Notes: generated by a model not told the origin, from the sequence alone. DNA of 64,000 nt from Chitinophagaceae bacterium (GCA_021299955.1 JAJTFQ010000013.1:11075-75074); one strand, 5' to 3'. Positions 44,421 through 64,000 are shown, counted from the first letter of the stretch. Numbers and translations are program-made.

Positions 44421-44491
44421 CCGGGGATGCGTAATGATGAGATAGTCGCCCTGACGTTCCTGGCGTGTATAATCTATGAAATTCCGAACGG

Positions 44492-48705: not shown

Positions 48706-49509
48706 ATGAAAACAGAAAATCGTCCCCAAAAGGGCAACAGGGTCGCCATCGTCATACCATCGAACAAACCGGACATGTCCGTCTTCGAGCATGCTTCCTA
48801 CATGCAATGCCTGAACGTGCTTGGTAAATATGACACCTTCATCGCAGGCCCGGAAGGGTTGGATATCAGCGAATATACCAGGCTGGGGCCTGTCCGCCAC
48901 TACAAGCAGGATCCCCGCTTCTTCGGAACTTCGCTCAGGTATAACCGGTTGATGCTGACCCCTCAATTCTATGAAGGCCTGTCAGCCTACGACTATATCC
49001 TCATTTATCAACTCGACTGCTATGTTTTCAGGGATGAGCTCGAGGAATGGTGTGGCATGGGATATGACTAAATTGGCGGGCCATGGATCGGTCAGGACCT
49101 GAAACAATGGGTATTGAAAAAGAAAAGAAACTACCCGGTGGATATGAAGTGGCTTCACAGGTTGACCGGGTACAAGTTACTAGGTTATGTCGGAAACGGA
49201 GGGCTGTCGCTCAGGAAAACGGATTCCCTCATTCGAAACCTCAAATGGTTCTCTCTGAGATTAAAATACTACGGAGGAAACGAGGATGTCTTCATGGCAC
49301 ACTACCTCGCTTCCCTGAATCCGTTTTTCCGCATTCCGGATACGAGTACCGCGCTGAAGTTCGCTTTCGATGCAAACCCGGACATCGCTTACAAAATGAA
49401 CGAAGAACGATTACCTTTTGGGTGCCATGCCTGGTGGAGGACCGACAAGGGTACATATGATCACAATCTTGATTTCTGGAGCCGGCACATCAACCTGCCC
49501 GCAAGTTGA
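48706..49509 (+). pseudogene. DUF5672-like putative glycosyltransferase with in-frame TAA at 49069
   Basis: YDYILIYQLD, YD*IGGPW, VGNGGLSLRK, NEDVF, PFGCHAW all in one frame. Confidence 0.7.
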
Positions 49510-50269
49510 ACCAAAGGGTATTGAACGTCAGCGATCGATCGCTCTCCACCCTCCGGGAAGTCGTTTCGGATTTGTTGTGCGGTTCTTCACCTGCATGATG
49601 TCCCCAGAGAGCATCATACAAACAGTTCTCTCCGATGCGGTCCTCCACACCCGGACCATATCCGCCCGGACTGATGCAGTTGCAACGAATGCCGCGCGTT
49701 CCGTATTTGTTGGCGATCCATCGGGTGAAACCGACCATCGCCCATTTCTCGCAGGTATAATTGAGCGGACTGCTCATATCGGTTCCTTCATAGACGGGGA
49801 AACGCGGGCCCGTAGCCCCCTGGATGGATCCGATGTTGATGATGTTGCCGTGCCCGGCCGAGAGCATGTGCGGAACCACCGCCTGCGTGATCAGCATCAG
49901 TCCGGTGGAATTGATGCGCAGTGCTGACTCCCAACCATCTTTAGTGACCGTATCCAGATCGCCCATACCCTGCCGGGTCACCGCATTGTTGACCAGGATG
50001 TCGATCCGTCCGCAGACCGAGATGACCTCCGCGACACAGGTTTGGATCGAATGTTCATCGCCCTGATCAAGGCGGACCGCCATGGCCCGGTATCCTTCCT
50101 GACCTAACTCCACTGCCAGTCGACGACAGGCCTCAAGATCCCTTGAAGCGATCACCACCATTGCACCGGCCTCTGCCAATGCACGACAAATGGGCCGGCC
50201 ATAAAGTCCGGCACCTCCTGTGACCAACGCCACCTGACCTTCCAGTGAAAACAGATCTCGTGTATGCAT
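49490..50269 (-). CDS. SDR oxidoreductase (C-terminus apparently lost after ~49622)
   Basis: TGGAGLYG, LVNNA, YTCEK catalytic motif, NCISPGG; lacks P.GR and DGG end. Confidence 0.8.
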   Translation of the reverse strand: MHTRDLFSLEGQVALVTGGAGLYGRPICRALAEAGAMVVIASRDLEACRRLAVELGQEGYRAMAVRLDQGDEHSIQTCVAEVISVCGRIDILVNNAVTRQGMGDLDTVTKDGWESALRINSTGLMLITQAVVPHMLSAGHGNIINIGSIQGATGPRFPVYEGTDMSSPLNYTCEKWAMVGFTRWIANKYGTRGIRCNCISPGGYGPGVEDRIGENCLYDALWGHHAGEEPHNKSETTSRRVESDRSLTFNTLWFNLRAG

Positions 50270-50284
50270 GACCGTTAGTATTGT

Positions 50285-51169
50285 TCATTTAGTCTGCCAT
50301 CGGCCCGGGATGATGATCCGTTCCGGAATTTTCAAGGCGATGACTTCCATCTCTGCAGCCAGCTCATCCGGAATGCGCTGTACCGCCATCAACGCACAAT
50401 TCTCCCGCAGCTGCCGGGCGGTATCTGCCCCGATGACCAGGCTCCCTACTCCCTCCTGATGATGCACATAGGAAAACGCCGCCTCAGCTATGCTCATGTT
50501 CGCACGTGCCGCCAAGAACGACAGCCTTTTTAACGGACCAGCAGCGTCGCGCAGGTCTGCAGGCAGATGACCGGGATCGGTGAGCAGCAATCCTTTCAGA
50601 AAGACACTGCGAATGAATACAAATATTCCTGCCTGACGGAGGACTTGCAATCGTCCGTTTCGCAGCAGAGCCGGGTCCAGCAGATTGAAAGGCACCTGCA
50701 CGCACCGAAAAGCGGGATGTCCAACTACAGGCTCGACATCCTCAGGTCGATAGGCTGATAAGCCCCCTGCCCCGATCAGCCCATCCTCCGTCAACTCCTG
50801 CAGGATATCTCCCAGGAGCAGCACGGAGACCCTTGGCCGTCCCATGGCTTGCAGAGAGGCCTCCAGGGAAGACCTTACTTGCCGGCGCAAGGCTTCAAAT
50901 CCGGCAGCAGCATCATCCAGCGTGAACTTGGTGACGATGTGTTCAAAACATGCCCGTCCACGGATGCCCTCATGACCGGCAATCACTTCCTCCGCCGTTC
51001 CATAGGACCTGGCTGTGTCCAGCACATTGATCCCACACTCCACGGCCGCATCCAGGATGTCATGGGCGGTTGACTGGTCAGGGGCCTCCGGGCCGGCATG
51101 CAAGCCATAGGGCAATCCAAGCTGAACCGTTCCCAGGGTGATCCGGGAAAAATTGGATATGTCGGACAT
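50285..51169 (-). CDS. aldo/keto reductase
   Basis: LGTVQLG..YG, DTARSYGTAE, VTK, VQVPFNLLD, RSVFLKG; expected LLH His segment missing. Confidence 0.82.
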   Translation of the reverse strand: MSDISNFSRITLGTVQLGLPYGLHAGPEAPDQSTAHDILDAAVECGINVLDTARSYGTAEEVIAGHEGIRGRACFEHIVTKFTLDDAAAGFEALRRQVRSSLEASLQAMGRPRVSVLLLGDILQELTEDGLIGAGGLSAYRPEDVEPVVGHPAFRCVQVPFNLLDPALLRNGRLQVLRQAGIFVFIRSVFLKGLLLTDPGHLPADLRDAAGPLKRLSFLAARANMSIAEAAFSYVHHQEGVGSLVIGADTARQLRENCALMAVQRIPDELAAEMEVIALKIPERIIIPGRWQTK

Positions 51170-51178
51170 ATCAATGAG

Positions 51179-51956
51179 TTACATATGATCAAGCTCATGA
51201 TCCTTGCCCGTGAAAACGGCCGGATCCAGGATATTGAGCGCACTGAATAATGTCTTGGCCATCTGGTCGTGCCCACGTCCGTTGGGATGAAGTTCGTCAT
51301 TCAGCCATTTGTGCAACTCCAGGATGTTTTTCTGCCCCTGTGCCGTCCAGTGTTGCCAGTGATCGACCAGGATCGTACCTTCCGCGGCAGCCACGGCCCG
51401 GATGCCCTCCACATACTCCCCGATCCGTTCACGGCCCGTCGCTCTTTCGAGCAACACGGTATTGGGCGTCTGCAACACGGGGATCGCTCCCTCCGACCGA
51501 ATGCGCCGGACCAGCTCGATCAGCTGACTTTTATATTTATCTACAGAGATGATCGTTCGTACCCACCATGATGAATACCACCGCCGGTGCAAACTGTCGG
51601 ATCCGCCATTCGTAATCCCCCAGGATGTCCCCGGCCGTATTCCCGCTGATGGCCGTATTGATGATCACATCCCGCACCCGGCGCAGCTCCCAGCGGATCC
51701 GCTCTCCGAAGATCTCCGGGTAGGAACGCGCGCCGAAGGTATGCTTGGCTCCATGGGTGATGCTGTCGCCCACAAAGACCCATTTGACAGGGGATTTGGC
51801 GGCCAGGATATCCCGGATCCGGGCGAGGTCCGCCGCAGGATCCCCGGCTGAGCGGGCAACGGTTGACCGATCAAAAGCTGACCAGAGCCAGCCACCGCTC
51901 ATAAGCAGGAGCGACCGGGTCAGTGACGCGGAAAGAAATTGTCTGCGGTTTTTCAT
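51179..51956 (-). pseudogene. SGNH/GDSL esterase with Tat-like signal, frameshifted at ~51551
   Basis: RRQFL signal; GDSIT, ISG, GTND in ORF 51537-51956; DELHPN in ORF 51179-51592. Confidence 0.75.
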
Positions 51957-51964
51957 GGTACAGC

Positions 51965-53089
51965 TTATTTTTTATCATAGATCCAGTCGAGGTCAAGTCG
52001 AACAATATCGGTCACGTTCAGATGCGTCTTCTTCGACTGGCTGCCCGCACAATAGCTCAGCAACACGCCTTTGTCAACAAAGTGCATCGCGATGTAGCAA
52101 TACCAGCCGTCCGGGTCTGTTTCGAAGTTCTTCACATGCTGCCAGCTGCGGCCTTCGTCTTTGGACACCGCCACTGTCAAAGGCGTGCGCTTGCCCTTCA
52201 GTTGAGGATCCTCCCCACCATTGCGGTTCCATACCATGAGCAGGTCGCCGGTGGCGGGGATCCGCTGGATGGTCGCGGGAGACAGGGGGGATGGAATGTC
52301 TGCCGGTTCGGCAGGCGTCCAGTCACGGCCATTGTTGCGGGAATAGCATTTGTACTGGGTGCCCGGACTCGCCCGGATGATCATCATAACATCCCCATTT
52401 TTCAGTTCCACTACACCCGGTTCCTGCAGCACCACCCCGTTGGGATTGCTGACCATTGGACTGGAAGTCCAGGTTCTGCCGTTGTCATCGGAATAATAGC
52501 TGAACAGCCGGGCGCCGTTCGACCACTGTGCCTCATCGGGCGTCTGATGCAGGGCCACGGCCATCAGCAGCCTACCGTCGCGCAGCTGGATCACGCGGTC
52601 GTTGTTCAACACATAATATCCCTTCCGGTCGGTGATGCAGGATATCGGCTCACTCCAGGTCTGCCCCTCATCCTTTGAGATACGCATGTATGGAATGCAA
52701 TCCGTCCAGGCATTTTTCTTGAGATAGAACAGCGCGATCTCCCCGTTCTGCAATCGAAGCAGGGACACGGACATGACATTGAGCAATCCCTCCCGATCGA
52801 CGATCGTACGATCGATCGACCAGGTGCGCCCGCCATCTTTGGATATCCGGCCGGCCAGGTAGGCAGTGGCATTGTCGTGGTCAGACTCCCCGAAATACCG
52901 GGTATAGACAAACAGGATACTGCCATCCTTCAGGGTGATGAAATCCCCTTCGCTGTTCCGGGGGTTGTTGATGCCCGGCGGAATGCGCAGGAGTAATTCC
53001 TTCCCTGAATTCGACTGAGCCATGGCTGCCGGCATGATGCCCGCACCCAGCACAAGTGCCCACAGGCTTCTGAGCAGTGATCTTTTCAT
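51965..53089 (-). CDS. sialidase-fold (BNR/Asp-box) secreted protein
   Basis: Signal peptide; five Asp boxes (SKDGGRTW, SKDEGQTW, SDDNGRTW, SRNNGRDW, SKDEGRSW); start at ATG 53089. Confidence 0.85.
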   Translation of the reverse strand: MKRSLLRSLWALVLGAGIMPAAMAQSNSGKELLLRIPPGINNPRNSEGDFITLKDGSILFVYTRYFGESDHDNATAYLAGRISKDGGRTWSIDRTIVDREGLLNVMSVSLLRLQNGEIALFYLKKNAWTDCIPYMRISKDEGQTWSEPISCITDRKGYYVLNNDRVIQLRDGRLLMAVALHQTPDEAQWSNGARLFSYYSDDNGRTWTSSPMVSNPNGVVLQEPGVVELKNGDVMMIIRASPGTQYKCYSRNNGRDWTPAEPADIPSPLSPATIQRIPATGDLLMVWNRNGGEDPQLKGKRTPLTVAVSKDEGRSWQHVKNFETDPDGWYCYIAMHFVDKGVLLSYCAGSQSKKTHLNVTDIVRLDLDWIYDKK

Positions 53090-53124
53090 GATGATTCGTT
53101 TTGCGTGTTTGGTTATATTAACTA

Positions 53125-54276
53125 CTATGGCAAGGAATCTTTGCGGTCGGCACGAAGCCAGTCGCCCGGGATCCTGACAAAACGTATCCATTCGCGACGA
53201 TGCTTTTCGCCGCCTTCGAAAACAAGTCCCACGGCTCCATCGGGCAAACTTACCAAACCTGAATACGAGGACGGACCGGCATGGACCAGCCGCCTGACCG
53301 GCCAGCTTGCACCATCATCGGGACTCACCCTGAGCGTCATGCGCCGACGGTCTTCGGCATAAACGGCCCCTTCGATATCAGGATTGGCAAAGAGCAGGAT
53401 GCGGGAGGACGCATCACCGGGCGCGTATCGCAAGAGGCTTGCCTGACAGGGTCGCTCGTTCAGGGCTTTATCATAGAAAAGGCTGTCCCAATGCGCGCCC
53501 CCGTCGCGGCTCAGGGCCACCGCCCGGCAGGCCGCTCCCATTGCCTGACGCATGTTCAACATGAGCCGTCCGTCGCTCAGCTCCGCCACCTGACATTCAT
53601 TGGCATCGATCGACACAGCCGATCCCATGGACCAGGTCCGTCCTTCATCATCGCTGTAGATCACGCGCGAATGCATTCCCTTTTCCGTCTTGAAATCGGG
53701 CTGCTCCACGGACGTGTACCCTGGAATGACCAGTCTCCCGGAACGGGTGCGAATACCTATACCCGGCCCCGGCACAAAAGTGTCGTCATATCCCTTGATG
53801 GAAGCCCCCATTTCCCGGGGTTTCGACCAGGTCCGGCCCCCGTTGCGTCTGGAGATCAGGAAATGGGTGCGATGCTCTCCTCTTGCCTTTCGGTTGGTGA
53901 GGCAATACATCAGCCAGATCTTACCAGACGTGGGATCGGCCAGGGCAACGGGATTCATGATCGCATCGGTGCCGCGACCCCTCACCAGTATCTGCATCGG
54001 CAACCAGCTGCGCCCGCCATCGAGGCTGCGCTTCAGGACCATGTCGGTGGGACTGGCATCTCCGATGCCTTCTTTCCTTGCTTCAGCAAACACCAGGATA
54101 TCACCCCGGGGCGTCGCCACCATCGCCGGAATGCGAAAAGTATGAATGCCCCCCTCTCCCGCCGCAAACACGACGGCATGCGCAGTGTCTGAACCGCGCA
54201 TGACCAGCGGGACCGTCAGTCCGAAAAGACATGCCATCCAAACATGCAGGAGAGCCTTCGTGGCAAAGCGGTGCAT
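53125..54276 (-). CDS. GH33-like exo-alpha-sialidase
   Basis: FRIP motif, Asp boxes, NECQ Glu, LNMR and RRRM Arg, SSYS Tyr nucleophile; signal peptide. Confidence 0.88.
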   Translation of the reverse strand: MHRFATKALLHVWMACLFGLTVPLVMRGSDTAHAVVFAAGEGGIHTFRIPAMVATPRGDILVFAEARKEGIGDASPTDMVLKRSLDGGRSWLPMQILVRGRGTDAIMNPVALADPTSGKIWLMYCLTNRKARGEHRTHFLISRRNGGRTWSKPREMGASIKGYDDTFVPGPGIGIRTRSGRLVIPGYTSVEQPDFKTEKGMHSRVIYSDDEGRTWSMGSAVSIDANECQVAELSDGRLMLNMRQAMGAACRAVALSRDGGAHWDSLFYDKALNERPCQASLLRYAPGDASSRILLFANPDIEGAVYAEDRRRMTLRVSPDDGASWPVRRLVHAGPSSYSGLVSLPDGAVGLVFEGGEKHRREWIRFVRIPGDWLRADRKDSLP

Positions 54277-54334
54277 ATGACTTGATTTTCGTTTATGCCT
54301 GACCGTTAGTCATTCGTCGCTTGTGATAGATCTG

Positions 54335-55639
54335 TCAATCCATGGCGGCCAATACGTCCCGGGCCGTAGAGATGGCATGGTCTATTTCTGCATCGGTATG
54401 TACAGCGCTGATGTACCAAAGTCCGCGACCGATCACGCGCACGCCTGCATCATGCATGCCCGCCACAAAACGGCCAAGCCTGGCCCGGTCCGCCGTGAGG
54501 GTATCGCGGTAATCCCGGAACACATCCCGGTCGGTGAAAGCGGTCACGAACATGGGGCCGGGACCCTGCACAAGCATTTGGTGTCCCGCATCTGCGGCTG
54601 CCTGTCGCAGTCCGGACATCAGTCGTTGTCCCAGCGCGAACATCCTGGCATGCGGCGCATCCCGCTCCAGGATGCTGATCTTGGCCAGGGCGGCGGCCAC
54701 TGAGGGCTGACCGGCATTCATGGTACCGGCATGTATTACCTTCGACTCCGCGATCAGCGACATCCATTCCCGACGTCCGACCACCGCACTGATGGGATAT
54801 CCGCTGCCCATGGCTTTGGCAAACACGGACATATCCGGTGTCACATTGAAATAAGTTTGTGCTCCGCTCAGCGACAGCCTGAAACCGGTGATCACTTCGT
54901 CCATGATGAAGGCGATGCCGTACTGGTCGCACAGGGTGCGGATCTCCTGCAGGAAACCCGGTGCCGGCAGGTTACAGCCGTTGTTGCACATGACCGCTTC
55001 GGTGATGATCGCCGCGACATCCTCATGATGCTCCGCCAGCGTGCGCCGCAGGCCTTCGGGATCATTCCAGGGCAGGATGATGAACTCTTCGCGGGACATC
55101 GGGGATATCCCCTGGCTCCAGGGGAAAGCTGTCGGCTGTTCCAGCGGCCCCATTGCTTGCGGTGTCGGTGCCGACAATCCCCAGGCCACATTATCGAGCC
55201 ATCCGTGGTAATGGCCTTCAAAGCGGATGAATTTCCGGCGGCCGGTGCGGGCCCGGGCTACCCGGAAGGCCGTCTGCACCGCTTCCGATCCGTCCAGGCA
55301 GAAACGCAGGAGCTCCGCCGAAGGGATGAGCCGTTGCAGGAGTTCCGCCAGTTCCACCTCCCTCAGGTGCTGACCGGCGTACATCTGTCCGGTAGCGGAG
55401 TACTCCGTAACAGCCTGCAATACTTCGGGATGCGAATGCCCGAGGATCAGCGGCCCCTGGCTCAGCGTGAAATCCAGGTATTCATTCCCGTCGATGTCCC
55501 AGATCCGCGATCCCATGGCCCGATCGTAAAAGATGGCATGGGGATGATTGTATTTTCTGAATTCGGAGGATACGCCTCCGGCGATGACCTGTTTCGCCCG
55601 CTCCAGCATCCGGGCCGATGCTTCATATCTGTTTCCCAT
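54335..55639 (-). CDS. class III aminotransferase (GSA-aminomutase-like)
   Basis: DIDGNEYLD, GSEA, FEGHYHG, DEVITGFR, FAKAMG PLP lysine, HAGT. Confidence 0.88.
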   Translation of the reverse strand: MGNRYEASARMLERAKQVIAGGVSSEFRKYNHPHAIFYDRAMGSRIWDIDGNEYLDFTLSQGPLILGHSHPEVLQAVTEYSATGQMYAGQHLREVELAELLQRLIPSAELLRFCLDGSEAVQTAFRVARARTGRRKFIRFEGHYHGWLDNVAWGLSAPTPQAMGPLEQPTAFPWSQGISPMSREEFIILPWNDPEGLRRTLAEHHEDVAAIITEAVMCNNGCNLPAPGFLQEIRTLCDQYGIAFIMDEVITGFRLSLSGAQTYFNVTPDMSVFAKAMGSGYPISAVVGRREWMSLIAESKVIHAGTMNAGQPSVAAALAKISILERDAPHARMFALGQRLMSGLRQAAADAGHQMLVQGPGPMFVTAFTDRDVFRDYRDTLTADRARLGRFVAGMHDAGVRVIGRGLWYISAVHTDAEIDHAISTARDVLAAMD

Positions 55640-55642
55640 CCG

Positions 55643-56881
55643 TCATGATTTGGCGTCTGTAATCGGAATTCCCTTTCGAACGCCCAGCAGCAGCAGGGCG
55701 CAGACGACCATGACCACGGCCGCCGTCTGATATATGTATGACAAATCGATCCGGGCATCCCTCAGGACGCCTCCGGCATAGATGGCCACGCCCCCGATGA
55801 TCGTACTGAAAAAGTTGAAGATACCATAGGCCGTGGCCCTATAACGAGTATCCACGATCAGACAGAGAATGGGCATCATATTGGCATCCCCGAAGGCGCG
55901 GGTGAAGGCATAGACCCCAAAGAATACCACCACCAGCGATAATGGCCCTCCAAGGGTGGCCATGAAGATGAACGGGGCCCCGACCAGCAGTCCAAACGCA
56001 GGCAGGAGCACCCTGCCACTCGGATTCTTCCGGCTCCACCTGTCTGCCATCATACCACCGAAGATCACACCCAGGAAAGATAATGGGTACAGCCAGGCCG
56101 TGGCAAAAAGCCCCGCATCCGTCTGCGTCAGTGCAAAGCGATCTTTGTAATAGGTCGGCAGCCAGCCCATCACCAGCCAGCTGACAATACCCAATAAACT
56201 CCAGTACCCGAGTGCCTTGAGGAAAGAGGGATTTCGGAACATCTTTCCGATCCCTTCGCGCATGCTTACCCCCGAACGGTCGTCCACACCCTCGGCAGGT
56301 GGTGGCGGATTTCTGAGTAGGAAAACCAGGACCACTGCGTAGCCCATCCCGAAGATACCCATGAAGGAAAATGCCGTGGTCCAGGAATACTGTTCCGCCA
56401 CCATCCCGCCCACAAATCCCAGACTCTGTCCGGCCATGATGCCCGCCTGATGGATCCCCGTGGCCAAAGAGCGGGTAGAGGAACCATGAAAATCGGCGAT
56501 GGCGGCCAATGCCGCCGGAATATAGAAAGCCTCGCTGATGCCCATCAACGCGCGGGTCAGCAGCAGCTCCTGAAAACTCGTGGTATGGGCGGTCAGCCAG
56601 GTCACCCCCGACCAGACAAAGAGACTGATCAGGATCACCCGTTTGCGGTCGAACCGGTCGGCCACAAAACCCGCAAATGGACTCAGGAGTCCGTAGACCC
56701 ACAGGAATACGGATGTGAGCAGCCCGAACTGTGCATCGGTCATCGGGATGGCATCGACCACCGATGTACGCATCGTAGTGATCATCGTACGATCGAGATA
56801 GTTCAGCGCCGCCACCACAAACAGCAAACCCACTGTCAGCCAGGCACCCCGTATCATTTTCGATTTGTCGGACATATCCAT
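55643..56881 (-). CDS. MFS transporter (ACS/sugar-acid-like)
   Basis: LNYLDR, GFVADRFDRK motif A, about 12 TM helices. Confidence 0.9.
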   Translation of the reverse strand: MDMSDKSKMIRGAWLTVGLLFVVAALNYLDRTMITTMRTSVVDAIPMTDAQFGLLTSVFLWVYGLLSPFAGFVADRFDRKRVILISLFVWSGVTWLTAHTTSFQELLLTRALMGISEAFYIPAALAAIADFHGSSTRSLATGIHQAGIMAGQSLGFVGGMVAEQYSWTTAFSFMGIFGMGYAVVLVFLLRNPPPPAEGVDDRSGVSMREGIGKMFRNPSFLKALGYWSLLGIVSWLVMGWLPTYYKDRFALTQTDAGLFATAWLYPLSFLGVIFGGMMADRWSRKNPSGRVLLPAFGLLVGAPFIFMATLGGPLSLVVVFFGVYAFTRAFGDANMMPILCLIVDTRYRATAYGIFNFFSTIIGGVAIYAGGVLRDARIDLSYIYQTAAVVMVVCALLLLGVRKGIPITDAKS

Positions 56882-56903
56882 TATGTTTTTTGGGAAACGG
56901 ATC

Positions 56904-58004
56904 TTATCTCCGTCCGGATCCCGGTTTCATGGCCACGTTGGCAGGCGTTCTGACACCCGGGCGGACCTCTCCGCTGATGAAGATCCATTGTCCCTTCCAG
57001 TGCACCGAAGGCAGGGTCACCCTTGATCTGAGATCCGGAGGTGTCGCTAACTGCCGGATGCCGGATCCGCTGGCGGGATAGATGATCAGTTTCCGTTCGA
57101 TGCCCGGATGGGTGGCCGGATCCCGATGACGGGATATGTTTTCACTCACACCTCCCCAGCAATAGAATCTCCCTTTACGATCGACCGGCACGGGGTTGGC
57201 CGAGGCAGACACGGATCCCGGAAGATCCGGTAACCGCTCCCACTGACCCGTCCATGATCCTTCCACTTTTCGGGTGCGCAACCGATAGACATCCCGGTAG
57301 AGGGTCCTGAGTTTGATGCCTGCGGAATCCCTCGCGACACCCTCTCCGCTGAACAGAAAGAAATCTCCAGCATGGCTGCCAGCAACCGGTTGTGCCCGAG
57401 CGGGCCCAGGCCAGCCGGGCAATTCAATCCAACCCTTTTCGATGTTTTCTAGGTCGAGGGCAAGGCATTTGGACAGGGGTGGTCCGGTGAGGCTTTCGTT
57501 CCCCCCGGCAACGATCAGCAACTGTCCGGTCCGACAGCCCGCCATATTAGCAAGCGGAAAAGGAAGGGATGGCAGCTTTCGGAAAGACAGCTGCCCCTGA
57601 GTCCAGCGCATCGCCCAGACATCGGCGTGAAAGATGCGCTCATTGCTGCCCCCGACGAGGATCAGTTCGTCTCCATATGCGGCGCTGACACCATATGCCA
57701 TGCGGGCCGGCAAGGTCTGCGGCATGCGTTCCCAGGTGCCGTCTTCCCGCAGCCCGAAGATCACGTCGTACCAGACTTTCGTACCGCCCTCCCAGGGCTT
57801 TTTATCCGGGAAGTTCGCCCCTCCCATGCAGAAGAGACGGCCACCGCTCTCGCCGGCAAACATGCCGGCCATTCCTTCCGGATCGGGTAATCCCGGAAAA
57901 GCCGACCAGGACGGAGCATCCTGTGCCTGCAGCGTTATGGCGGGGATCATCCATCCTATGAAGGCACACATCATCCGGCTCAACAGAGATCTCAGTTTAT
58001 GCAT
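56904..58004 (-). CDS. kelch-repeat NanM-like (sialic acid mutarotase family) secreted protein
   Basis: Signal peptide; GMAGMFAG, GGANFP, repeated GG/W kelch blades, SGEVRPGVRTP end. Confidence 0.72.
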   Translation of the reverse strand: MHKLRSLLSRMMCAFIGWMIPAITLQAQDAPSWSAFPGLPDPEGMAGMFAGESGGRLFCMGGANFPDKKPWEGGTKVWYDVIFGLREDGTWERMPQTLPARMAYGVSAAYGDELILVGGSNERIFHADVWAMRWTQGQLSFRKLPSLPFPLANMAGCRTGQLLIVAGGNESLTGPPLSKCLALDLENIEKGWIELPGWPGPARAQPVAGSHAGDFFLFSGEGVARDSAGIKLRTLYRDVYRLRTRKVEGSWTGQWERLPDLPGSVSASANPVPVDRKGRFYCWGGVSENISRHRDPATHPGIERKLIIYPASGSGIRQLATPPDLRSRVTLPSVHWKGQWIFISGEVRPGVRTPANVAMKPGSGRR

Positions 58005-60312
58005 GTATGGTTATTTTTATGCGTTTAACCGCACCCGGACCGGGTTCGGCATATCCGCCGGTGACCAGGATCGTGTGTTCATCAATAAAAACCAAGTTGC
58101 TGACCAAGGGCATCCCCACATCCAGCGATGCGATCAGCACACCGTCTGACGTTAGCAACTGTACTTGTCCCATGCCGTAATGGGCGACCCCCAGCCAGCC
58201 CCGAGGATGCAGTGCGATGCCGTCGGGCAGGTTCCCCAAAGGTTCCCCGGAGGGATGACAGGGCAGGTCAGCGAACACCCTTCTCCCGTCTTCGGCCACC
58301 GTGCCGGGCCTCATCAGCGAAATGGCCAGGATGCGATTGGCATAACTTTCCGCCACATACAGGATGGATTCGTCGGCCGACAATACGATCCCGTTGGGAT
58401 AATCCAGATCTTCGGCGATCACGGAGGTGCTGCCATCCGGCGCCATACCGAAGACCCGCCCGCCTTGCCGCACCGAATCAGTAAAATACAAATATCCACT
58501 TCGATCCATGCAGAGATCATTGGGCACCTGCACTTCCCGGCCATCGATCACCGCCGGGGTTTGATGACCTGAAAAAGTTCCGGTTGCTGAAAAACGGTTC
58601 ACGCGACCTTCCCGGCTGTCACAGACCAGATGATCCCCGCCATGTATCCGGATCTGACCGTTGGGACAGGTCCCGGAAGCCCAATCAGTGGTCGTTCCGG
58701 TCGGATCGACCCGCATGATGCCACCCCCGGAAAGGGTCGTAAAGTACATGGAACCATCGTCGGCCACAGCGGGGCCCTCCGTGTACCAGGCCAGGTCAGC
58801 CAGGGTCTCCACTGATCGCAACCGTACAACGGGTAATTTTTCTGGGGCCGGATGTTCGAATGGAAACAATGGATGCCGGCGATGCCGGAACGGAAATCGG
58901 GTCATATCCGCGCCCGTGACCCCGGGGCTATCCACCTGAATATAGGTAGGACATACTTCCCGATAGGCCGCGATGGGGGCATTCACGCCCTTGGCAACGA
59001 TCCAGCCGAAAGCCTCCGGCTGCAGGCCGAAAGCGGTGAGCTGATGCAGGCTGAAGGGCGGGGTCCGGCGGGTGTTGAGCATGATGGTAAGACCCTCTGC
59101 AGATCGCAGGATGACCGTTTCCCCCATGTCGAACTGCAACTGCCCGCCATGTCTGGGCGCTGTTTCCTGAAAACTGCCGGGTCCTTTGTACAGGAGTGTC
59201 ACACTACGGTGCGGACGAATGCCGGTGACCGGATGACGTCCAAATGCCAGCACAAAAGATGATCCCGGATCCCGGGCGAAAGCCTCAGACACGGCTTCCG
59301 GATCGAAGATGCAGCAGAAACCGTCGTGGATGCCCGCGGCGCCGAGGGCTTCAATGATGTATGTACTATCACCGGGAGATCCTCCGCCGACATTGTCGCC
59401 CATGTCGAGCAACAGCAGCGGGCGGGGGGCCTCTTTGATATGTGTGACAAGTTCAGTGATCCCTTTCAGGTCACCCCGGAAATCATGCAATCGCGGCAGG
59501 ACATGATTCGTCAATTCCTGCAATGCCGCCACTGCAATGGCAGGATTTTGATCGGCCACCACGAGGAAACCAGTCCCCAACTCCGGCACATCCGCATAAG
59601 GGAAGCCCAGCAACAGGCTGGAGGACAGGATCCCGGGCAGTTGTTGAACAGCGCGGAATTGTTCCTGCAGACTTTTGCAGGGTTCCACTTCTGTCCGTTG
59701 TTGTTCGATGCTGATGGCGAGTGGGGGCTTGAACATCCGCTGTACCGGCCGGATTTCTCCTCGCAGGGTGGCCGCCATCAGTCTGCCCGCATCCAGTCCG
59801 ACCTGTCGCTGGTCGATATGGGGATTGGTGCGATAGGCAATGAGCGCATCCGTGGCCCCTACCATACGTTCGCTCAGGTTGGCATGGGGATCTAATGTTC
59901 CGATGACCGGCACATCCGGGCCTACCAGTTCACGGAGTCTGGACAGCCACTCCCCATCCATGTCGGAAAATTGTTCGGAGACACCTGCTCCATGGGGCAC
60001 GACCAGGCAACCGTCAATGGGAAGGCTGGGCACCAATCGCTGGAACATCTGTGCACAGAGGGTCTCAAATGCGGCAGCTGTTACGACTCCGCCGGGGGTG
60101 GCTTCGGCATACATGACGGGAACGATCTTGATATCGGCCTCGTCCATCGCCTGGATCATACCACCCACCTCATGATAGGCGTGCCGATAGTCGGTGATGA
60201 TGTCGTTCCCAAAACACCAATGACCTTCTTCAAAACGCCGGATATCCGTCTGCGTTTCGACGAAGGTGTTCGATTCGTGAACAATACCCATCAGTGCGAC
60301 CCTGCGCTTCAT
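57997..60312 (-). CDS. M81/MlrC-family metallo-amidohydrolase fused to SMP-30/gluconolactonase
   Basis: HESNTF, HGAG, DPHAN, TNPHID; then TEGP, PNG, PND, PNG, PDG lactonase motifs; start ATG 60312 overlaps ridA stop. Confidence 0.82.
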   Translation of the reverse strand: MKRRVALMGIVHESNTFVETQTDIRRFEEGHWCFGNDIITDYRHAYHEVGGMIQAMDEADIKIVPVMYAEATPGGVVTAAAFETLCAQMFQRLVPSLPIDGCLVVPHGAGVSEQFSDMDGEWLSRLRELVGPDVPVIGTLDPHANLSERMVGATDALIAYRTNPHIDQRQVGLDAGRLMAATLRGEIRPVQRMFKPPLAISIEQQRTEVEPCKSLQEQFRAVQQLPGILSSSLLLGFPYADVPELGTGFLVVADQNPAIAVAALQELTNHVLPRLHDFRGDLKGITELVTHIKEAPRPLLLLDMGDNVGGGSPGDSTYIIEALGAAGIHDGFCCIFDPEAVSEAFARDPGSSFVLAFGRHPVTGIRPHRSVTLLYKGPGSFQETAPRHGGQLQFDMGETVILRSAEGLTIMLNTRRTPPFSLHQLTAFGLQPEAFGWIVAKGVNAPIAAYREVCPTYIQVDSPGVTGADMTRFPFRHRRHPLFPFEHPAPEKLPVVRLRSVETLADLAWYTEGPAVADDGSMYFTTLSGGGIMRVDPTGTTTDWASGTCPNGQIRIHGGDHLVCDSREGRVNRFSATGTFSGHQTPAVIDGREVQVPNDLCMDRSGYLYFTDSVRQGGRVFGMAPDGSTSVIAEDLDYPNGIVLSADESILYVAESYANRILAISLMRPGTVAEDGRRVFADLPCHPSGEPLGNLPDGIALHPRGWLGVAHYGMGQVQLLTSDGVLIASLDVGMPLVSNLVFIDEHTILVTGGYAEPGPGAVKRIKITIHA

Positions 60313-60695
60313 GACCGGGGCTTGTAGGCAACGGCGTCCGCCTCGAACTTGAGCATGGTGCCCAGGCATCCGATGATGGTGGTGCGGGCAGGGAATGGTT
60401 CCTGGAAGAACTCCCGGTAGATCCGGTTGAAATCTGCCAGATCCTCCTGACGACCTACGTAGTTGCGTACCTGAACCACATCCCTGAAGCTCAGGCCGGC
60501 ACCTTCCAGGATCCGTCCGAGATTACGGAAAGAACGACGGCACTCTTCTTCAAACGTATCATTGATGATGCGGCCTTCGTCGTCAACGGAGGCCTGTCCG
60601 GAAATAAATACAAAATCTCCTGCATGGATGGCCGGAGAAAAAGGAAGATGACTTTGCGGGATGCCTTCTCCGCGTACGACTTCAAATGATGACAT
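60309..60695 (-). CDS. RidA/YjgF family enamine/imine deaminase
   Basis: PFSPA, FISGQ, FNRIY, PART, FEAD. Confidence 0.9.
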   Translation of the reverse strand: MSSFEVVRGEGIPQSHLPFSPAIHAGDFVFISGQASVDDEGRIINDTFEEECRRSFRNLGRILEGAGLSFRDVVQVRNYVGRQEDLADFNRIYREFFQEPFPARTTIIGCLGTMLKFEADAVAYKPRS

Positions 60696-60737
60696 GACTG
60701 GTATTTTACAGGTTGTGTTATTTTGTTAAGGGTTTTA

Positions 60738-61628
60738 TTAGGGAAGGTATGACTCTACCCGACGGATCCGTTCCATCAGGTACTCATCAGACCAAGCCAG
60801 TTCCGGGGTCATCAGCGGTGCCTTGGCCTTACCGATGTCGATGCCGTAGCGCAGTTGCATGCCCCGGCGGAAGAAGGTCCAGATGCAGGGCAGGATCTCC
60901 AGGATCAACTGCTGGAACTCCAGCATGAAGGCCATGGCCATGGCCGTCTCCCCGTTCAGAAAGGCCTGACGTACATGTTTGCAAACGGGGCCAAACAGGT
61001 TGTATGTGGATCCGATGGCACCGGCTGTACCGCAAAGCGCTGCATGACACATGAGTTCATCCGCACCACTGAAAAGGGTCCACCTTCCACCGGAACTGAT
61101 GCGGATGGAAGCGATGTCGAGCATATTGAGCGTCGTCAGCTTGAGCCCTTTCAGATTCGGGATCTCCAGCAGTTCCCGGATCATATCCTCCGTCATGGGT
61201 GCATTGCCGATCTGATAGGGAAAGAACGGAATGGAGATCGAAGCGGCAAGAGACCTGTAATGCGCCATGCCCATCGCGGGACTGGCAGCATAGTAGATGG
61301 GACCCACCGAAGAAACGGCATCAGCACCGTGCGCTTCGGCATGCCGAGCCAGGCGTACGGATTCATCCGTGCTAAGTGCCCCTACATGCACCATCACCGG
61401 AATTCTTTTTTGGGCGATCGACAGGGCCGCTTCCGCGATCCGCTTGCGTTCAGCCTCTGCGTACAGGAATCCCTGTCCCGTGGATCCCAGCAGATAGATG
61501 CCATCCAGTTCCTGCCTGATGATGAGTTCTATCAACTTCTCCATTTCCGTCAGGTTCACCGTTCCGTCATCATTCACCGGAGTGAACATGGCCGGCCATA
61601 ATCCTTTCAATTGCTTAGCGTCTTGCAT
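60738..61628 (-). CDS. NanA-like aldolase (DHDPS/N-acetylneuraminate lyase family)
   Basis: GSTGQ, GLKLT Schiff-base Lys, SGADE, GAIGSTYN. Confidence 0.85.
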   Translation of the reverse strand: MQDAKQLKGLWPAMFTPVNDDGTVNLTEMEKLIELIIRQELDGIYLLGSTGQGFLYAEAERKRIAEAALSIAQKRIPVMVHVGALSTDESVRLARHAEAHGADAVSSVGPIYYAASPAMGMAHYRSLAASISIPFFPYQIGNAPMTEDMIRELLEIPNLKGLKLTTLNMLDIASIRISSGGRWTLFSGADELMCHAALCGTAGAIGSTYNLFGPVCKHVRQAFLNGETAMAMAFMLEFQQLILEILPCIWTFFRRGMQLRYGIDIGKAKAPLMTPELAWSDEYLMERIRRVESYLP

Positions 61629-61646
61629 GGGATCCTTGTTAAGTTT

Positions 61647-62744
61647 TCAATGTTCGGTTGATCTAATATGATTGACCATCTGGTCAGGTGTAAGGGTTTG
61701 TATATCCGGCAGTCCGAACCTGCGCTCCACCGTAAGCATATCCTTGAAGCCGCTGCCGGTGACCAGGCACACGATCTTGTCATCCAGTCCGACTTCCTTA
61801 CGCCGTACGGCGCCCGCCAGTCCCGCCAGGGCGACCGCACCTGCGGGCTCGCAGAAGACCCCCTCGCGCTGCGCCATCAGCCGCTGCCAGTGAAAGACCT
61901 CTTCATCCTTCACCACATGACCGTTACCGCCGGAAGCCAGACATGCCTGAACGACCAGGTCGGCATCCAGGAGTCCGGGGACCTGCAGCCCGCTGACCTC
62001 TGTGGTGGAGGATGGTATCGCAATCCCTCCGGAGGCACCGGATCGGATCGCCGTGGCCATCGTATCGTTGCCTTCCGGCTGAACACAGTGTATAGAAGGC
62101 ATGATATCCGGTTTTATCGAACGGGCATGGATCTCTGCGCCATAGGCCATGGCCAGGGTGAGACCACCACCACCCGAAGGACTGAACACATGCCGGGGTT
62201 GTAATTCATCCAACAATTCGCACATGATGGTCTGCACGCCCTGCATGCCTTCCGGACAAAATGCATAAGCACTAACGGGCAGGGGTACCCTAAATTCAGC
62301 AGCCATTAAGCGTAGCTGACCAAATACCTCGTCGGTCACGGCTGTATCTTTTCCAAAGCCACTGACCATGATGGTTTCTGCGCCATAGAGCTGCATCTGG
62401 CGGATCTTGGCATGGGGCGCTCCATCGACGATGACGAGCACACAGCGGATCCCCGCCGCCGCACAATAGGCTGAGAGGGCTGCACCCGTATTTCCACTGG
62501 AGGTGGCGATGCAGAGCGTATGTCCCTGCGCCTTCATCAGACTCACAAATGCTGCGGCAAAACGATCTTTGTAGGAGCCCGTGGGATTGAGTTGCTCGAG
62601 TTTAAAATACAAGTTTGACAAACCCAGCGAAGGTCCAATGCTTTTTGAACGCAGCAAGGGCGTCCCTCCCTCCCCCAGGGAGATCCGGTGTACGGGCGAC
62701 ACATCAGGCATATGTCCGACATATTTCCAGATATCAGTATTCAT
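61647..62744 (-). CDS. threonine-synthase-like PLP-dependent enzyme (fold type II)
   Basis: NPTGSYKDR, SSGNTG, PSGGGG, EPAGA, TGSGFK. Confidence 0.85.
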   Translation of the reverse strand: MNTDIWKYVGHMPDVSPVHRISLGEGGTPLLRSKSIGPSLGLSNLYFKLEQLNPTGSYKDRFAAAFVSLMKAQGHTLCIATSSGNTGAALSAYCAAAGIRCVLVIVDGAPHAKIRQMQLYGAETIMVSGFGKDTAVTDEVFGQLRLMAAEFRVPLPVSAYAFCPEGMQGVQTIMCELLDELQPRHVFSPSGGGGLTLAMAYGAEIHARSIKPDIMPSIHCVQPEGNDTMATAIRSGASGGIAIPSSTTEVSGLQVPGLLDADLVVQACLASGGNGHVVKDEEVFHWQRLMAQREGVFCEPAGAVALAGLAGAVRRKEVGLDDKIVCLVTGSGFKDMLTVERRFGLPDIQTLTPDQMVNHIRSTEH

Positions 62745-63549
62745 CGGGAAACTGAAGTTTTTTTAGGGGATAGCTGTTCATGTTGACGGAGAAGCCGCCA
62801 TCGATGGTCAGGCAGGTACCGGTGATGAATGATGCCTCCGCTGAACAGAGCCATACTACGGCATTTGCCACTTCCTCAGGATTGCCGGCGCGGCCAAGGG
62901 GGGTGGCATCCGTGATGTATCCTTCCAGTTTCCGGGCCATGCCGCCGGCCGCTGCATCCTGCTCATAATCCAGGCTGAGGCCCGTTTCAATGTATCCCGG
63001 GCGGACACAAAGCACCCGGATCCCGCTTCGTCCATAGGTCACCGCTGCTTCCCGGGTCAGTCCCTCCAATCCTGCCTTGACGGCGATATATGCGGGACTG
63101 TTCCCGGCGGCGCGGTCGGACATCATGCTGGATACGTTGATCATAACGCCACCTGTGCCCTGTTTCTCCATTGCTTCTGCGGCATGTTTGATAAGAAATG
63201 CCGGAGCCGTCAGACAGACATCCAGTGTGCGCTGCCAGGTTGCCCGGTCGATGTTACGCAGCGACTGCAGGGTTCTCCAGGCAGCATTATTGATCAGGAT
63301 GTCGATCTGCCCAAAGGTGCTCATGGCATGAGCAATCAGTTGTTCGGGAAAATCCGGATCGGCCAGATCACCAGCACATATTGTGACTTCCACACCGGGT
63401 CGGTCTGCCAGAGATTGTTGTACCACCTCCAGAGCAGACTCATCGAGATCATTGATGACGAGGTTGCATGCATGGCGGGCAAACCCCTGTGCGATGGCCT
63501 GACCAATGCCCCCCGCTGCTCCTGTAATGATGATGGTAGGATTTTTCAT
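62734..63549 (-). CDS. SDR oxidoreductase
   Basis: TGAAGGIG, INNAA, YIAVK, PLGR, IDGG. Confidence 0.92.
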   Translation of the reverse strand: MKNPTIIITGAAGGIGQAIAQGFARHACNLVINDLDESALEVVQQSLADRPGVEVTICAGDLADPDFPEQLIAHAMSTFGQIDILINNAAWRTLQSLRNIDRATWQRTLDVCLTAPAFLIKHAAEAMEKQGTGGVMINVSSMMSDRAAGNSPAYIAVKAGLEGLTREAAVTYGRSGIRVLCVRPGYIETGLSLDYEQDAAAGGMARKLEGYITDATPLGRAGNPEEVANAVVWLCSAEASFITGTCLTIDGGFSVNMNSYPLKKLQFPDEY

Positions 63550-63998
63550 GCCATCAAGTGCTTTACACGTTCATCGATCACACAAATGCCCCCAAGTGAA
63601 TCACCGGCCCTGACAATGGCTTCTGCACGTAAAAATAGCACCAGTCCATCATCCTCTGCAAAGACTTCCCTCCTGTCCCCGCGAAAGGGATCAAAAACAT
63701 ACCCCCAGAGATCCCCCCTGACCACCTCCTGACCAAGAACGACGGCTGCAACGAATATGCCGTCGGCCGGAGATGGCATTTTAGATTGCAAATGCCCCTG
63801 GTTGGGTCTTGCGTCTTCGACCCAACATGTGACTGATGCAGCGGGTTTGGTTGTTTCCGGTGAGACGAGTCCCAGCAGGGCCAGGACGCGCAGGCATCCC
63901 TCAACATAGGCTTCCTCGATATGAGGCCGTACAACGGATCCGCCGCCATACTCTACATACATGGAAGGTATGCCGGCATCCCGGGCCACAGATAGTGT
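63546..63998 (-). CDS. succinylglutamate desuccinylase/aspartoacylase (M14) family deacylase, C-terminal part (runs off window)
   Basis: GIPSMYVEYGGG catalytic Glu region followed by lipoyl-like SPADGIF..GQEV..GD tail. Confidence 0.72.
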   Translation of the reverse strand, partial: TLSVARDAGIPSMYVEYGGGSVVRPHIEEAYVEGCLRVLALLGLVSPETTKPAASVTCWVEDARPNQGHLQSKMPSPADGIFVAAVVLGQEVVRGDLWGYVFDPFRGDRREVFAEDDGLVLFLRAEAIVRAGDSLGGICVIDERVKHLMA

Positions 63999-64000
63999 TC

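What the first reader, a model, noticed from the sequence alone, without database searches (positions are those of the whole stretch)
49490..64000. Candidate undescribed catabolic pathway for diamino nonulosonic acids (pseudaminic/legionaminic acid type)
Seen: 14 co-oriented, often overlapping genes in the order M14 deacylase, SDR, ThrC-like PLP enzyme, NanA-like aldolase, RidA, M81 deacylase::lactonase, NanM-like kelch, MFS, class III aminotransferase, GH33 sialidase, second Asp-box protein, SGNH esterase, AKR, SDR. Known: sialidase, NanM, O-acetylesterase, transporter and NanA form the front end of sialic acid use, but the usual back end (NanE/NanK/NagA/NagB) is absent from the window. Inference: two N-deacylases and two amine-removing PLP enzymes fit a substrate with two acylamino groups. 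Aldolase cleavage of Pse/Leg would give pyruvate plus a 2,4-diacetamido-6-deoxyhexose. SDR oxidation and the lactonase would give the aldonate, and the two deacylases would free the amines. The aminotransferase would remove the C4 amine, and the ThrC-like enzyme with RidA would beta-eliminate the C2 amine. I know of no characterised route like this.
Basis: partly seen in the sequence, partly recalled or inferred. Interest (0 to 1): 0.85.

Follow-up and report, generated by a model that had tools for sequence, protein, structure and literature searches.

The report
Pathway for eating bacterial sialic-acid mimics
A freshwater Bacteroidota genome carries a conserved gene cluster, sharing one predicted regulator, that likely strips legionaminic-type sugars (sialic-acid look-alikes with two nitrogen groups that bacteria wear on their surfaces) from glycans and burns them by an oxidative route that appears undescribed.

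Summary
All 14 genes are real; three apparent lesions are assembly gaps. The locus continues upstream into a NanU-type SusCD pair, a FadR regulator, more sialidase-like genes and a second aldolase. All four perfect copies of one operator-like palindrome in the genome lie in it. The core (aldolase, M14, SDR, ThrC-like, RidA, M81, lactonase) recurs in 22 of 23 long loci from four Bacteroidota families. New support for a diamino, 9-deoxy substrate: the AKR-SDR pair's nearest plasmid relatives sit in pseudaminic acid biosynthesis clusters and share the architecture of the EpaA/EpaB C8-epimerases. No PfkB kinase motif was found, and end enzymes are of the 6-deoxy-sugar-acid type. L-specific M14 and ThrC-like families point to the legionaminic series; a sister locus with D-specific enzymes fits pseudaminic acid. 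One correction: the aminotransferase is accessory, absent from a complete genome that holds the core. No enzyme has been assayed. I found no such pathway in ten literature searches.

The parts
63546..64000 (-). M14 (AstE/AspA, DoeB-like) N-deacylase, 3' part; gene starts 502 bases beyond the window. Predicted C2 N-acyl-aldonate deacylase
   Evidence: DoeB 91 bits, below cut-off 402.7; His/Glu zinc motifs align with 3CDX; DoeB 6TWL also hit
62734..63549 (-). SDR1, predicted aldose 1-dehydrogenase
   Evidence: Y154/K158 invariant; glucose 1-dehydrogenases among best profile hits; not specific
62710..62724 (.). Operator-like palindrome ATATGT-N3-ACATAT inside the first codons of the ThrC-like gene
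61647..62744 (-). ThrC-like fold-type II PLP enzyme lacking the NSxNPxR phosphohomoserine motif; predicted 2-amino-aldonate dehydratase/ammonia-lyase
   Evidence: (174.7 bits vs cut-off 303)
60738..61628 (-). NanA-like class I aldolase (GSTG, Y138, K163, G-A-D-E, G-S/T-x-Y-N)
   Evidence: (168 vs cut-off 281)
60309..60695 (-). RidA family imine deaminase
57997..60312 (-). M81 (MlrC-like) metallo-deacylase fused to SMP-30 lactonase; the two are separate genes in most relatives
56904..58004 (-). NanM-like kelch mutarotase (fused to an SSS transporter in Cyclobacteriaceae)
55643..56881 (-). MFS transporter, related to the MFS of the genome's ordinary nan row
54335..55639 (-). HemL/GntE-like class III aminotransferase; accessory, shared with a sister locus
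53125..54276 (-). GH33 sialidase with FRIP motif; accessory
   Evidence: M. viridifaciens sialidase E 5e-44
51965..53089 (-). Divergent Asp-box sialidase-like protein (NPRNSE type); near-core. A paralogue lies just beyond the window
   Evidence: invariant R43, D71, E222, R238, R300, Y331; sialidase fold, TM 0.73
51179..51956 (-). SGNH esterase, predicted O-deacylase; apparent frameshift at 51551 is an assembly gap
51157..51171 (.). Operator-like palindrome overlapping the AKR start codon
50285..51169 (-). Aldo-keto reductase of the kind found in Pse biosynthesis clusters and fused to CMP-nonulosonate synthetases (EpaA-like); 45 bases missing in this assembly
49490..50269 (-). SDR2, EpaB/AciE-like by context and family; 165 bases missing in this assembly

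Best explanation
This is a polysaccharide utilisation locus that likely breaks down 5,7-diacylamino-9-deoxy nonulosonic acids of the legionaminic series (Leg, 8-epi-Leg, acinetaminic acid) by a predicted oxidative, kinase-free route. Shown: gene content, conservation, a shared palindrome, and separation from the Neu5Ac genes. Inferred steps: (1) SusC/NanU-type SusD bind the glycan, Asp-box enzymes release the sugar, SGNH removes O-acyl groups, NanM mutarotates and the MFS imports. (2) The AKR and SDR2 unify C8 (perhaps also C7) stereochemistry through an 8-keto intermediate. (3) The NanA-like aldolase gives pyruvate and a 2,4-diacylamino-2,4,6-trideoxyhexose. (4) SDR1 and the lactonase give the aldonate. 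(5) M14 frees the C2 amine, which is L-configured in the D-manno series. (6) The ThrC-like enzyme beta-eliminates and RidA hydrolyses the imine, giving a 4-acylamino-2-keto-3-deoxy acid. (7) M81 frees the C4 amine, which the aminotransferase removes; in Cyclobacteriaceae a Gfo-type dehydrogenase would fill this step. (8) An end enzyme that varies by lineage (second DHDPS aldolase here; RraA, HpcH or FAH hydrolase elsewhere) yields a second pyruvate plus lactaldehyde or lactate. Steps 2, 7 and the order of 5-7 are the least certain.
For: Nonulosonate front end: intact SusD of close relative L004 passes the NanU cut-off (471 vs 425); sialidase fold and invariant residues; NanA motifs. Not the ordinary Neu5Ac route: nanA-MFS-GH33-AGE row on C132 and AGE on C87; NanA-type genes outside the cluster in 9 of 10 cluster genomes, and directly beside it in Niabella L028. 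Two deacylases are both core: M14 in 23 of 23, M81 in 22 of 23. AKR: 10 of 10 plasmid hits are in Bacillus/Priestia; the two regions opened hold pseC/pseG/pseH; 13 of 13 longer homologues are fused to PF02348, the EpaA architecture shown to epimerise Pse at C8 (PMC12053666, section 6 read). SDR2: its top 10 of 17 plasmid hits are in those same genera, and 20 of 29 Bacteroidota homologue loci have a NeuB-family gene within 1.5 kb. No PfkB motif in 47 loci. The FAH in two Cyclobacterium loci scores best as 2,4-didehydro-3-deoxy-L-rhamnonate hydrolase (293 bits on a partial ORF, cut-off 500). Precedent for deacylase + PLP deaminase + RidA on an N-acetyl aldonate: OngB/C/D (PMC9537276, passages and section 13 read). 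All 4 perfect palindromes in 3.0 Mb lie in this locus, 0.1 expected.
Against: No enzyme assay or growth data. The aminotransferase is in only 8 of 23 long loci and was not found in 2 of 5 genomes tested, one of them complete; its replacement by Gfo is confounded with taxonomy. The AKR was not found in 5 of 5 further cluster genomes. The aminotransferase is one clade with no fixed differences between this locus and the sister locus, although Leg and Pse differ at C7, so one of the stereochemical assignments is incomplete. It is no closer to the aminotransferases fused to CMP-synthetases (191 bits) than to HemL (267 bits). The AKR/SDR2 relatives point to Pse clusters, not Leg clusters. One relative (L004) has an AGE epimerase inside the cluster, and the same palindrome precedes the ordinary nanA locus of G214. 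L-specificity of M14 and ThrC families is recalled knowledge, and some fold-II enzymes act on D-amino acids. No family cut-off names any substrate. EpaA/EpaB sequences themselves could not be compared.
Confidence: 0.55

Rival explanations
1. Same pathway logic, but the substrate is pseudaminic acid or 8-epi-Pse (alone or with Leg), with the ThrC-like enzyme and M14 accepting a D-configured C2.
For: AKR and SDR2 relatives lie in Pse clusters; EpaA/EpaB act on Pse (PMC12053666); the aminotransferase is shared with the sister locus.
Against: M14 and ThrC families are L-specific where characterised (recalled). The aldolase keeps the NanA motifs for a D-manno aldose. A sister locus has a fold-III D-serine-dehydratase-like enzyme, an M19 peptidase and a divergent aldolase, and the characterised fold-III OngC acts on D-amino substrates (PMC9537276).
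Confidence: 0.15
2. An oxidative second route for ordinary or modified mono-amino sialic acids: Neu5Ac/Neu5Gc to ManNAc, N-acylmannosaminate, mannosaminate and KDG, with the two deacylases splitting acetyl and glycolyl substrates.
For: Explains aldolase, SDR1, lactonase, one deacylase, ThrC-like and RidA with the right L-configuration; NanU-type SusD; one cluster genome (G402) has no other NanA-type hit; AGE in L004.
Against: Redundant with nan genes in 9 of 10 genomes; leaves the aminotransferase, AKR and SDR2 unexplained; no PfkB motif in the loci; no N-acylmannosamine dehydrogenase among the listed PDB hits of SDR1 (only the best 60 of 125 shown).
Confidence: 0.13
3. The substrate is an amino-tailored ulosonic acid (for example 8-amino or other amino derivatives made by NeuB + class III aminotransferase + SDR clusters), and the aminotransferase/AKR/SDR2 trio reverses that tailoring before aldol cleavage.
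For: SDR2 homologues sit beside a class III aminotransferase in 20 of 29 Bacteroidota loci that mostly also hold a short NeuB; triple fusions AKR::CMP-synthetase::aminotransferase exist (2 of 13); aminotransferase, AKR and SDR2 travel together in several loci.
Against: The catabolic aminotransferase is only 27-35% identical to those biosynthetic ones; the two-deacylase core still needs a second N-acyl group.
Confidence: 0.1
4. The core degrades a diamino hexose that is not from a nonulosonate (such as a bacillosamine-type sugar), the NanA-like enzyme being the final 2-keto-3-deoxy aldolase.
For: Sphingobacterium and Niabella loci show no second aldolase within the flanks held.
Against: Constant company of sialidase-like, NanM-like and NanU-like genes; NanA-specific motifs; a second aldolase or hydrolase is present in many loci, including this genome.
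Confidence: 0.07

Closest known systems
Bacteroidota sialic acid utilisation (nanO/nanU, nanH, nanM, nanT, nanL, nanE/AGE, rokA; reviewed in PMC10017367, passages seen)
   Same: SusC/NanU-type SusD, GH33 sialidase, mutarotase, MFS transporter, O-esterase, NanA-type aldolase, FadR regulator.
   Different: No AGE/kinase/NagA/NagB back end in the core; the aldolase is 27-29% identical to the genome's own nan-row aldolase; seven or more oxidative and nitrogen-removing enzymes are added.
Oxidative chitin pathway OngB/OngC/OngD/KdgK of Pseudoalteromonas (PMC9537276; passages and section 13 read)
   Same: N-acyl aldonate deacylated, then deaminated by a PLP enzyme to a 2-keto-3-deoxy acid, with an essential RidA protein.
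   Different: Ong uses a D-aminoacylase, a fold-III D-specific deaminase and a kinase on one N-acetyl group. This locus uses M14 plus M81, a fold-II ThrC-like enzyme, an upstream aldolase and no kinase.
EpaA/EpaB (Pse to 8-epi-Pse; PMC12053666, section 6 and passages read) and AciE (PMC5595891, passages read)
   Same: AKR domain plus a 262-266 aa SDR as a pair tied to diamino nonulosonates.
   Different: Those are biosynthetic and carry or neighbour a cytidylyltransferase; here the AKR is free-standing in a catabolic locus. No direct sequence comparison with EpaA/EpaB was possible.
Non-phosphorylative L-rhamnose/L-fucose pathways (dehydrogenase, lactonase, dehydratase, then aldolase or diketo-hydrolase; recalled)
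   Same: SDR + lactonase entry; HpcH/DHDPS aldolase or FAH hydrolase exit to pyruvate and lactaldehyde/lactate.
   Different: Dehydration is replaced by PLP deamination, and two N-acyl groups must be removed.
Ectoine/hydroxyectoine degradation (DoeB/EutE, EutB, DoeD; recalled)
   Same: M14 deacetylase of an N-acetyl-2,4-diamino acid, a fold-II PLP enzyme and a class III aminotransferase.
   Different: All score far below their cut-offs; no DoeA/EutD hydrolase; sugar-uptake context.

Membership tests
Canonical nan (Neu5Ac) cluster | NanA/NanL aldolase with Schiff-base Lys, Tyr relay, GxDE and GSxYN motifs | tested here: met
   (K163, Y138, GADE, GSTYN); but below NCBIfam cut-off, 168 vs 281
Canonical nan (Neu5Ac) cluster | ManNAc back end (NanE/AGE, kinase, NagA, NagB) in the locus | tested here: not met
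   none among scanned ORFs of this locus; AGE genes lie on C132 and C87; AGE similarity in 1 of 34 related loci (L004)
Canonical nan (Neu5Ac) cluster | NanU-type SusD | tested here: met
   both halves hit NanU; intact orthologue L004 scores 471 vs cut-off 425; Cyclobacterium SusD scores 303, below cut-off
GH33 sialidase (53125-54276) | FRIP motif, Arg triad, Glu/Tyr pair, Asp boxes | tested here: met
   alignment to 1W8N/1EUR, (roles of the residues recalled)
GH33 sialidase (51965-53089) | Six-bladed sialidase fold with Arg triad and Glu/Tyr pair | tested here: met
GH33 sialidase (51965-53089) | (F/Y)RIP motif | tested here: not met
   replaced by invariant NPRNSE
Threonine synthase ThrC | NSxNPxR phosphohomoserine-binding motif and family cut-off | tested here: not met
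   query reads VSAYAFCPEG, Arg not conserved; 174.7 vs 303 bits; motif role recalled
Ong GlcNAc1A pathway | D-aminoacylase OngB, fold-III OngC, KdgK | tested here: not met
   M14/M81 and a fold-II PALP enzyme instead; no PfkB motif
EpaA/EpaB C8-epimerase | AKR homologous to CMP-synthetase-fused AKR domains plus adjacent adh_short_C2 SDR | tested here: met
   (25-34% to fused domains)
EpaA/EpaB C8-epimerase | Cytidylyltransferase domain | tested here: not met
   AKR is about 300 aa with PF00248 only
EpaA/EpaB C8-epimerase | C8 epimerisation activity | not testable with these tools
   needs assay
Ectoine degradation doe/eut | DoeB and EutB above cut-off, DoeA present | tested here: not met
   91 vs 402.7 and 66.5 vs 413 bits
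Nonulosonate biosynthesis cluster | NeuB-family synthase | tested here: not met
   no PF03102 match in the genome, which is 76% complete

The most novel reading that the evidence does not exclude
Aquatic and soil Bacteroidota carry two mirror-image, undescribed pathways that recycle the bacteria-only diamino nonulosonic acids. This one (M14, ThrC-like, M81) serves the legionaminic series. A sister one (M19, fold-III deaminase, ceramidase-like amidase, two 3HCDH-family enzymes) serves the pseudaminic series. They share one aminotransferase and use repurposed biosynthetic C8-epimerases as a funnel, and the NPRNSE Asp-box family would be dedicated legionaminidases.
Probability: 0.45. Interest if true: 0.88.

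Novelty: new variant of a known kind. Interest (0 to 1): 0.78.

Why it matters
Legionaminic, pseudaminic and related sugars coat flagella, capsules and LPS of many bacteria, yet I found no described route for their breakdown in the searched library. The locus turns an open question (who recycles these sugars, and how) into direct assays on cultured, non-pathogenic strains. It would give first sugar substrates for an M81 subfamily and a ThrC-like subfamily. It would also supply candidate Leg-selective glycosidases and an aldolase as tools for detecting and synthesising these sugars.

Tried and rejected
Pseudogene reading of SGNH/AKR/SDR2: rejected by public contigs. Expression: two metatranscriptome runs cover the locus, but also flanking genes and at 90-99% identity, as contigs only, so this is no evidence of induction. 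Biosynthetic role: no NeuB found. Aminotransferase as an orthologue of the biosynthetic class III enzymes: not supported. Aminotransferase split into locus-specific clades: neither shown nor rejected, p-AU 0.23. Gfo as an ElaA-like epimerase: 6 plasmid hits, none opened, no link shown. M81 plasmid hits (16, 30-34%) were uninformative. ThrC-like had no plasmid match; AKR had no phage match. A guessed operator pattern found nothing; the real one came from alignment. Planctomycetota: the aldolase orthologue was in 1 of 251 genomes, the seed genome itself, and the ThrC-like gene was not found in 3 of 3 planctomycete genomes tested. M19 + fold-III pairs also occur outside the sister locus, including C178 of this genome, so that pair alone does not mark Pse use. 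Literature: ten searches found no catabolic pathway for Leg/Pse; most subscription papers are not held, two wanted papers were unavailable, and no supplements were read. I recall a report that Vibrio NanA can act on free Leg, but could not check it. Earlier scan notes: no look-alike. No complex prediction was run.
Full report
OBSERVATION. The window is G000:C173:11075-75074, a 3.0 Mb assembly that is 76% complete; its closest relatives are Chitinophagaceae MAGs, and most runs that hold it are freshwater metagenomes. Three apparent lesions are assembly gaps: contigs of four public runs carry 17 more bases in the SGNH gene (4 of 4), 45 more in the AKR (4 of 4) and 165 more in the last SDR (3 of 4).

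THE LOCUS IS LARGER. Beyond the window come the start of the M14 gene, a second NPRNSE-type Asp-box protein, a split SusD and SusC. Contig C38 holds the SusC N-terminus, a divergent FadR, a second DHDPS-family aldolase, an SGNH and two more Asp-box genes; a close relative (L003) spans both contigs. The SusD is of the NanU family: the intact orthologue in L004 scores 471 against a cut-off of 425. Seven FadR-susC intergenic regions share the palindrome ATATGT-N3-ACATAT. The genome has four perfect copies, against 0.1 expected, and all four are in this locus: before susC, before the second aldolase, in the first codons of the ThrC-like gene and over the AKR start. The coding-region copy may be constrained by protein sequence. 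This suggests one regulon (inference).

CONSERVATION. A scan with the aldolase gave 34 loci. Among the 23 of at least 14 kb (11 shorter ones left out of this count), M14 is in 23; SDR1, ThrC-like, RidA, M81 and lactonase in 22; NanM in 20; the NPRNSE protein in 19. The carriers named include Chitinophagaceae, Sphingobacteriaceae, Cyclobacteriaceae and Saprospiraceae. The locus is rare: 2 of 400 sampled Bacteroidota genomes. Accessory genes vary: aminotransferase 8, AKR 11, SDR2 8, Gfo/Idh/MocA 11, RraA 9 of 23. No locus has both aminotransferase and Gfo, but the split follows taxonomy and flanks are cut at 10 kb.

NOT THE ORDINARY NEU5AC ROUTE. The genome has a separate nanA-MFS-GH33-AGE row on C132 and an AGE with a ROK regulator on C87. 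NanA-type genes 39-65% identical to the C132 enzyme occur outside the cluster in 9 of 10 cluster-bearing genomes tested, G402 being the exception. In Niabella L028 the two clusters are adjacent. That C132 serves Neu5Ac is itself an inference from gene content. The window's aldolase keeps the NanA catalytic and glycerol-tail motifs, but has an invariant Ala (GADE) where E. coli has Tyr, which could make room for a C7 acylamino group; the nan-row enzymes have Arg there, so this is weak.

INDEPENDENT LINK TO DIAMINO NONULOSONATES. In 72,556 plasmids the AKR has 10 hits, all in Bacillus or Priestia, and the top 10 of 17 SDR2 hits are the neighbouring genes in those records. The two regions I opened are pseudaminic acid clusters with pseC, pseG and pseH, one also with pseI. 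All 13 longer homologues of the AKR are fused to a CMP-nonulosonate synthetase domain. That is the architecture of EpaA, which with the 262-aa SDR EpaB converts Pse to 8-epi-Pse (PMC12053666; section 6 and passages read). An SpsF::AKR fusion followed by a dehydrogenase is also noted in a Vibrio Pse cluster (PMC7371886; passages). In Bacteroidota, 20 of the 29 best SDR2 homologue loci have a NeuB-family gene within 1.5 kb. I used intact orthologues (L008, L009) as queries because the window copies have gaps.

THE BACK END FITS A 6-DEOXY INTERMEDIATE. A simple PfkB motif search found none in 47 loci. End enzymes alternate: a second DHDPS aldolase (this genome, L006, L009, G214), RraA (Cyclobacteriaceae, Saprospiraceae, G330), HpcH (G214) and an FAH hydrolase with an SDR (two Cyclobacterium genomes), whose best family is 2,4-didehydro-3-deoxy-L-rhamnonate hydrolase, below cut-off. 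A 9-deoxy sugar yields a C6 acid with no C6 hydroxyl to phosphorylate, which fits (inference). Sphingobacterium and Niabella loci show no end enzyme within the flanks held.

MECHANISM AND STEREOCHEMISTRY. The characterised precedent is OngB/OngC/OngD: deacetylation of N-acetylglucosaminate, PLP deamination to KDG by a fold-III enzyme that also takes D-serine and D-threonine, and an essential RidA (PMC9537276; passages and section 13). Here the PLP enzyme is ThrC-like but lacks the phosphohomoserine motif, and the deacylase is DoeB/aspartoacylase-like; both families act on L-amino acids where known (recalled). From the configurations given in PMC7371886 and PMC5595891, Leg, 8-epi-Leg, Aci and 8-epi-Aci share the C5 configuration of Neu5Ac and give an L-2-amino aldonate, whereas Pse gives a D-2-amino aldonate (my derivation). 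A sister locus, reached through the shared aminotransferase (5 of 400 genomes), has a fold-III enzyme, an M19 peptidase, a ceramidase-like amidase, RidA, a divergent aldolase, NanU-like SusD and Asp-box genes. It is the natural candidate for Pse. The proposed route for this locus is set out under Best explanation.

WHAT DOES NOT FIT. The aminotransferase was not found in a complete Cyclobacterium genome or in a Saprospiraceae MAG that hold the core, and the AKR was not found in five further cluster genomes. The aminotransferases of both loci form one supported clade without fixed differences, although Leg and Pse differ at C7. One way out is that AKR and SDR2 also invert C7 through the 8-ketone; this is speculation. 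The aminotransferase is not specially close to the biosynthetic ones. One relative has AGE in the cluster, and the palindrome also precedes the ordinary nanA locus of G214. M19 + fold-III pairs occur outside the sister locus. RNA contigs show nothing about induction.

COMPARISON AND NOVELTY. It works like a Bacteroidota nan locus at the front, like the Ong pathway in the middle and like non-phosphorylative rhamnose/fucose routes at the end. It fails membership of the canonical nan cluster, Ong, ThrC and ectoine systems. Ten literature searches found no catabolic pathway for Leg or Pse. The library lacks most subscription papers, and I read no supplements. Of PMC10017367, PMC9558349 and PMC13317340 I saw only term passages. 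Two earlier scan notes (e1-4277830, e1-1364603) describe analogous deacylase-aminotransferase modules in other genomes; I did not test them and they are not support.

VERDICT. My estimates: diamino 9-deoxy nonulosonate as substrate about 0.7 in total (Leg series 0.55, Pse 0.15); mono-amino sialic acid 0.13; amino-tailored ulosonate 0.10; other 0.07. Interest 0.78.

Noticed in passing
L146/L160 (G062), L148/L161 (G226), L113 (G330), L056/L111/L112 (G214), L114 (G402), L147 (G286): Sister locus, found through the shared aminotransferase: RidA, two 3HCDH-family genes (one fused to the aminotransferase in G402), M19 peptidase, ceramidase-like amidase, fold-III D-serine-dehydratase-like enzyme, divergent DHDPS aldolase, NanU-like SusD and Asp-box genes; not every genome has every gene. 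G062 adds an Fe-ADH (best hit lactaldehyde reductase, below cut-off) and an ALDH. Candidate pseudaminic acid pathway.
   Followed up: partly
L166-L194, L197-L199: Bacteroidota biosynthetic rows with a short NeuB-family synthase (about 290 aa), KDN-9-phosphatase-like HAD enzyme, class III aminotransferase, SDR2-like dehydrogenase and, where wider regions were read, a CMP-synthetase and a fatty acid hydroxylase. Likely makes an undescribed amino-nonulosonate, perhaps on a lipid.
   Followed up: partly
L051 (G000:C38:1-5433): Upstream continuation of the locus: SusC N-terminus, divergent FadR, second DHDPS aldolase with GAMGE in place of GSTGE, SGNH and two Asp-box proteins; two perfect palindromes. 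Linked to C173 through close relative L003.
   Followed up: yes
L006:15936-17717 (also L005, L062, L063): 579-593 aa protein without Pfam hit inserted between MFS and aminotransferase; Atlas neighbours are GHL10-like clusters (14-46% of members). Possible endo-glycanase.
   Followed up: partly
L115 (G330:C33): Another SusCD locus with SDR, enolase-superfamily enzyme, a 37% aminotransferase paralogue, a 27% M81 paralogue and a sugar transporter.
   Followed up: no
L075, L078, L079, L083, L084, L098: Metagenome loci link the ThrC-like and M14 genes head to head with RraA and a more distant class III aminotransferase (35-38%), among sulfatase genes.
   Followed up: partly
window 46857-48173: Gene that reads like a tyrosyl-tRNA synthetase (from sequence, not scanned); 3 of 3 runs lack 7 bases at 48070, so its odd C-terminus is an assembly artefact.
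   Followed up: partly
window 48700-49509: DUF5672 gene in two ORFs on the + strand, converging on the locus end; the runs show single-base differences here but I did not resolve the break.
   Followed up: no
window 40611-46689: Large ORFs that look like type IX secretion components (PorU/PorV-like; recalled resemblance, not scanned).
   Followed up: no
L050 (G000:C99:2966-9775), partly duplicated on C10: Row of two DHDPS-family genes, an Fe-ADH, two further enzymes and an SSS transporter: another unexplained sugar-acid locus.
   Followed up: no
G000:C53:4985 and C51:227: Near-matches of the palindrome before a FadR-like/SusC-like divergent pair and before a 1084-aa ORF; possible wider regulon or paralogous regulators.
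   Followed up: partly
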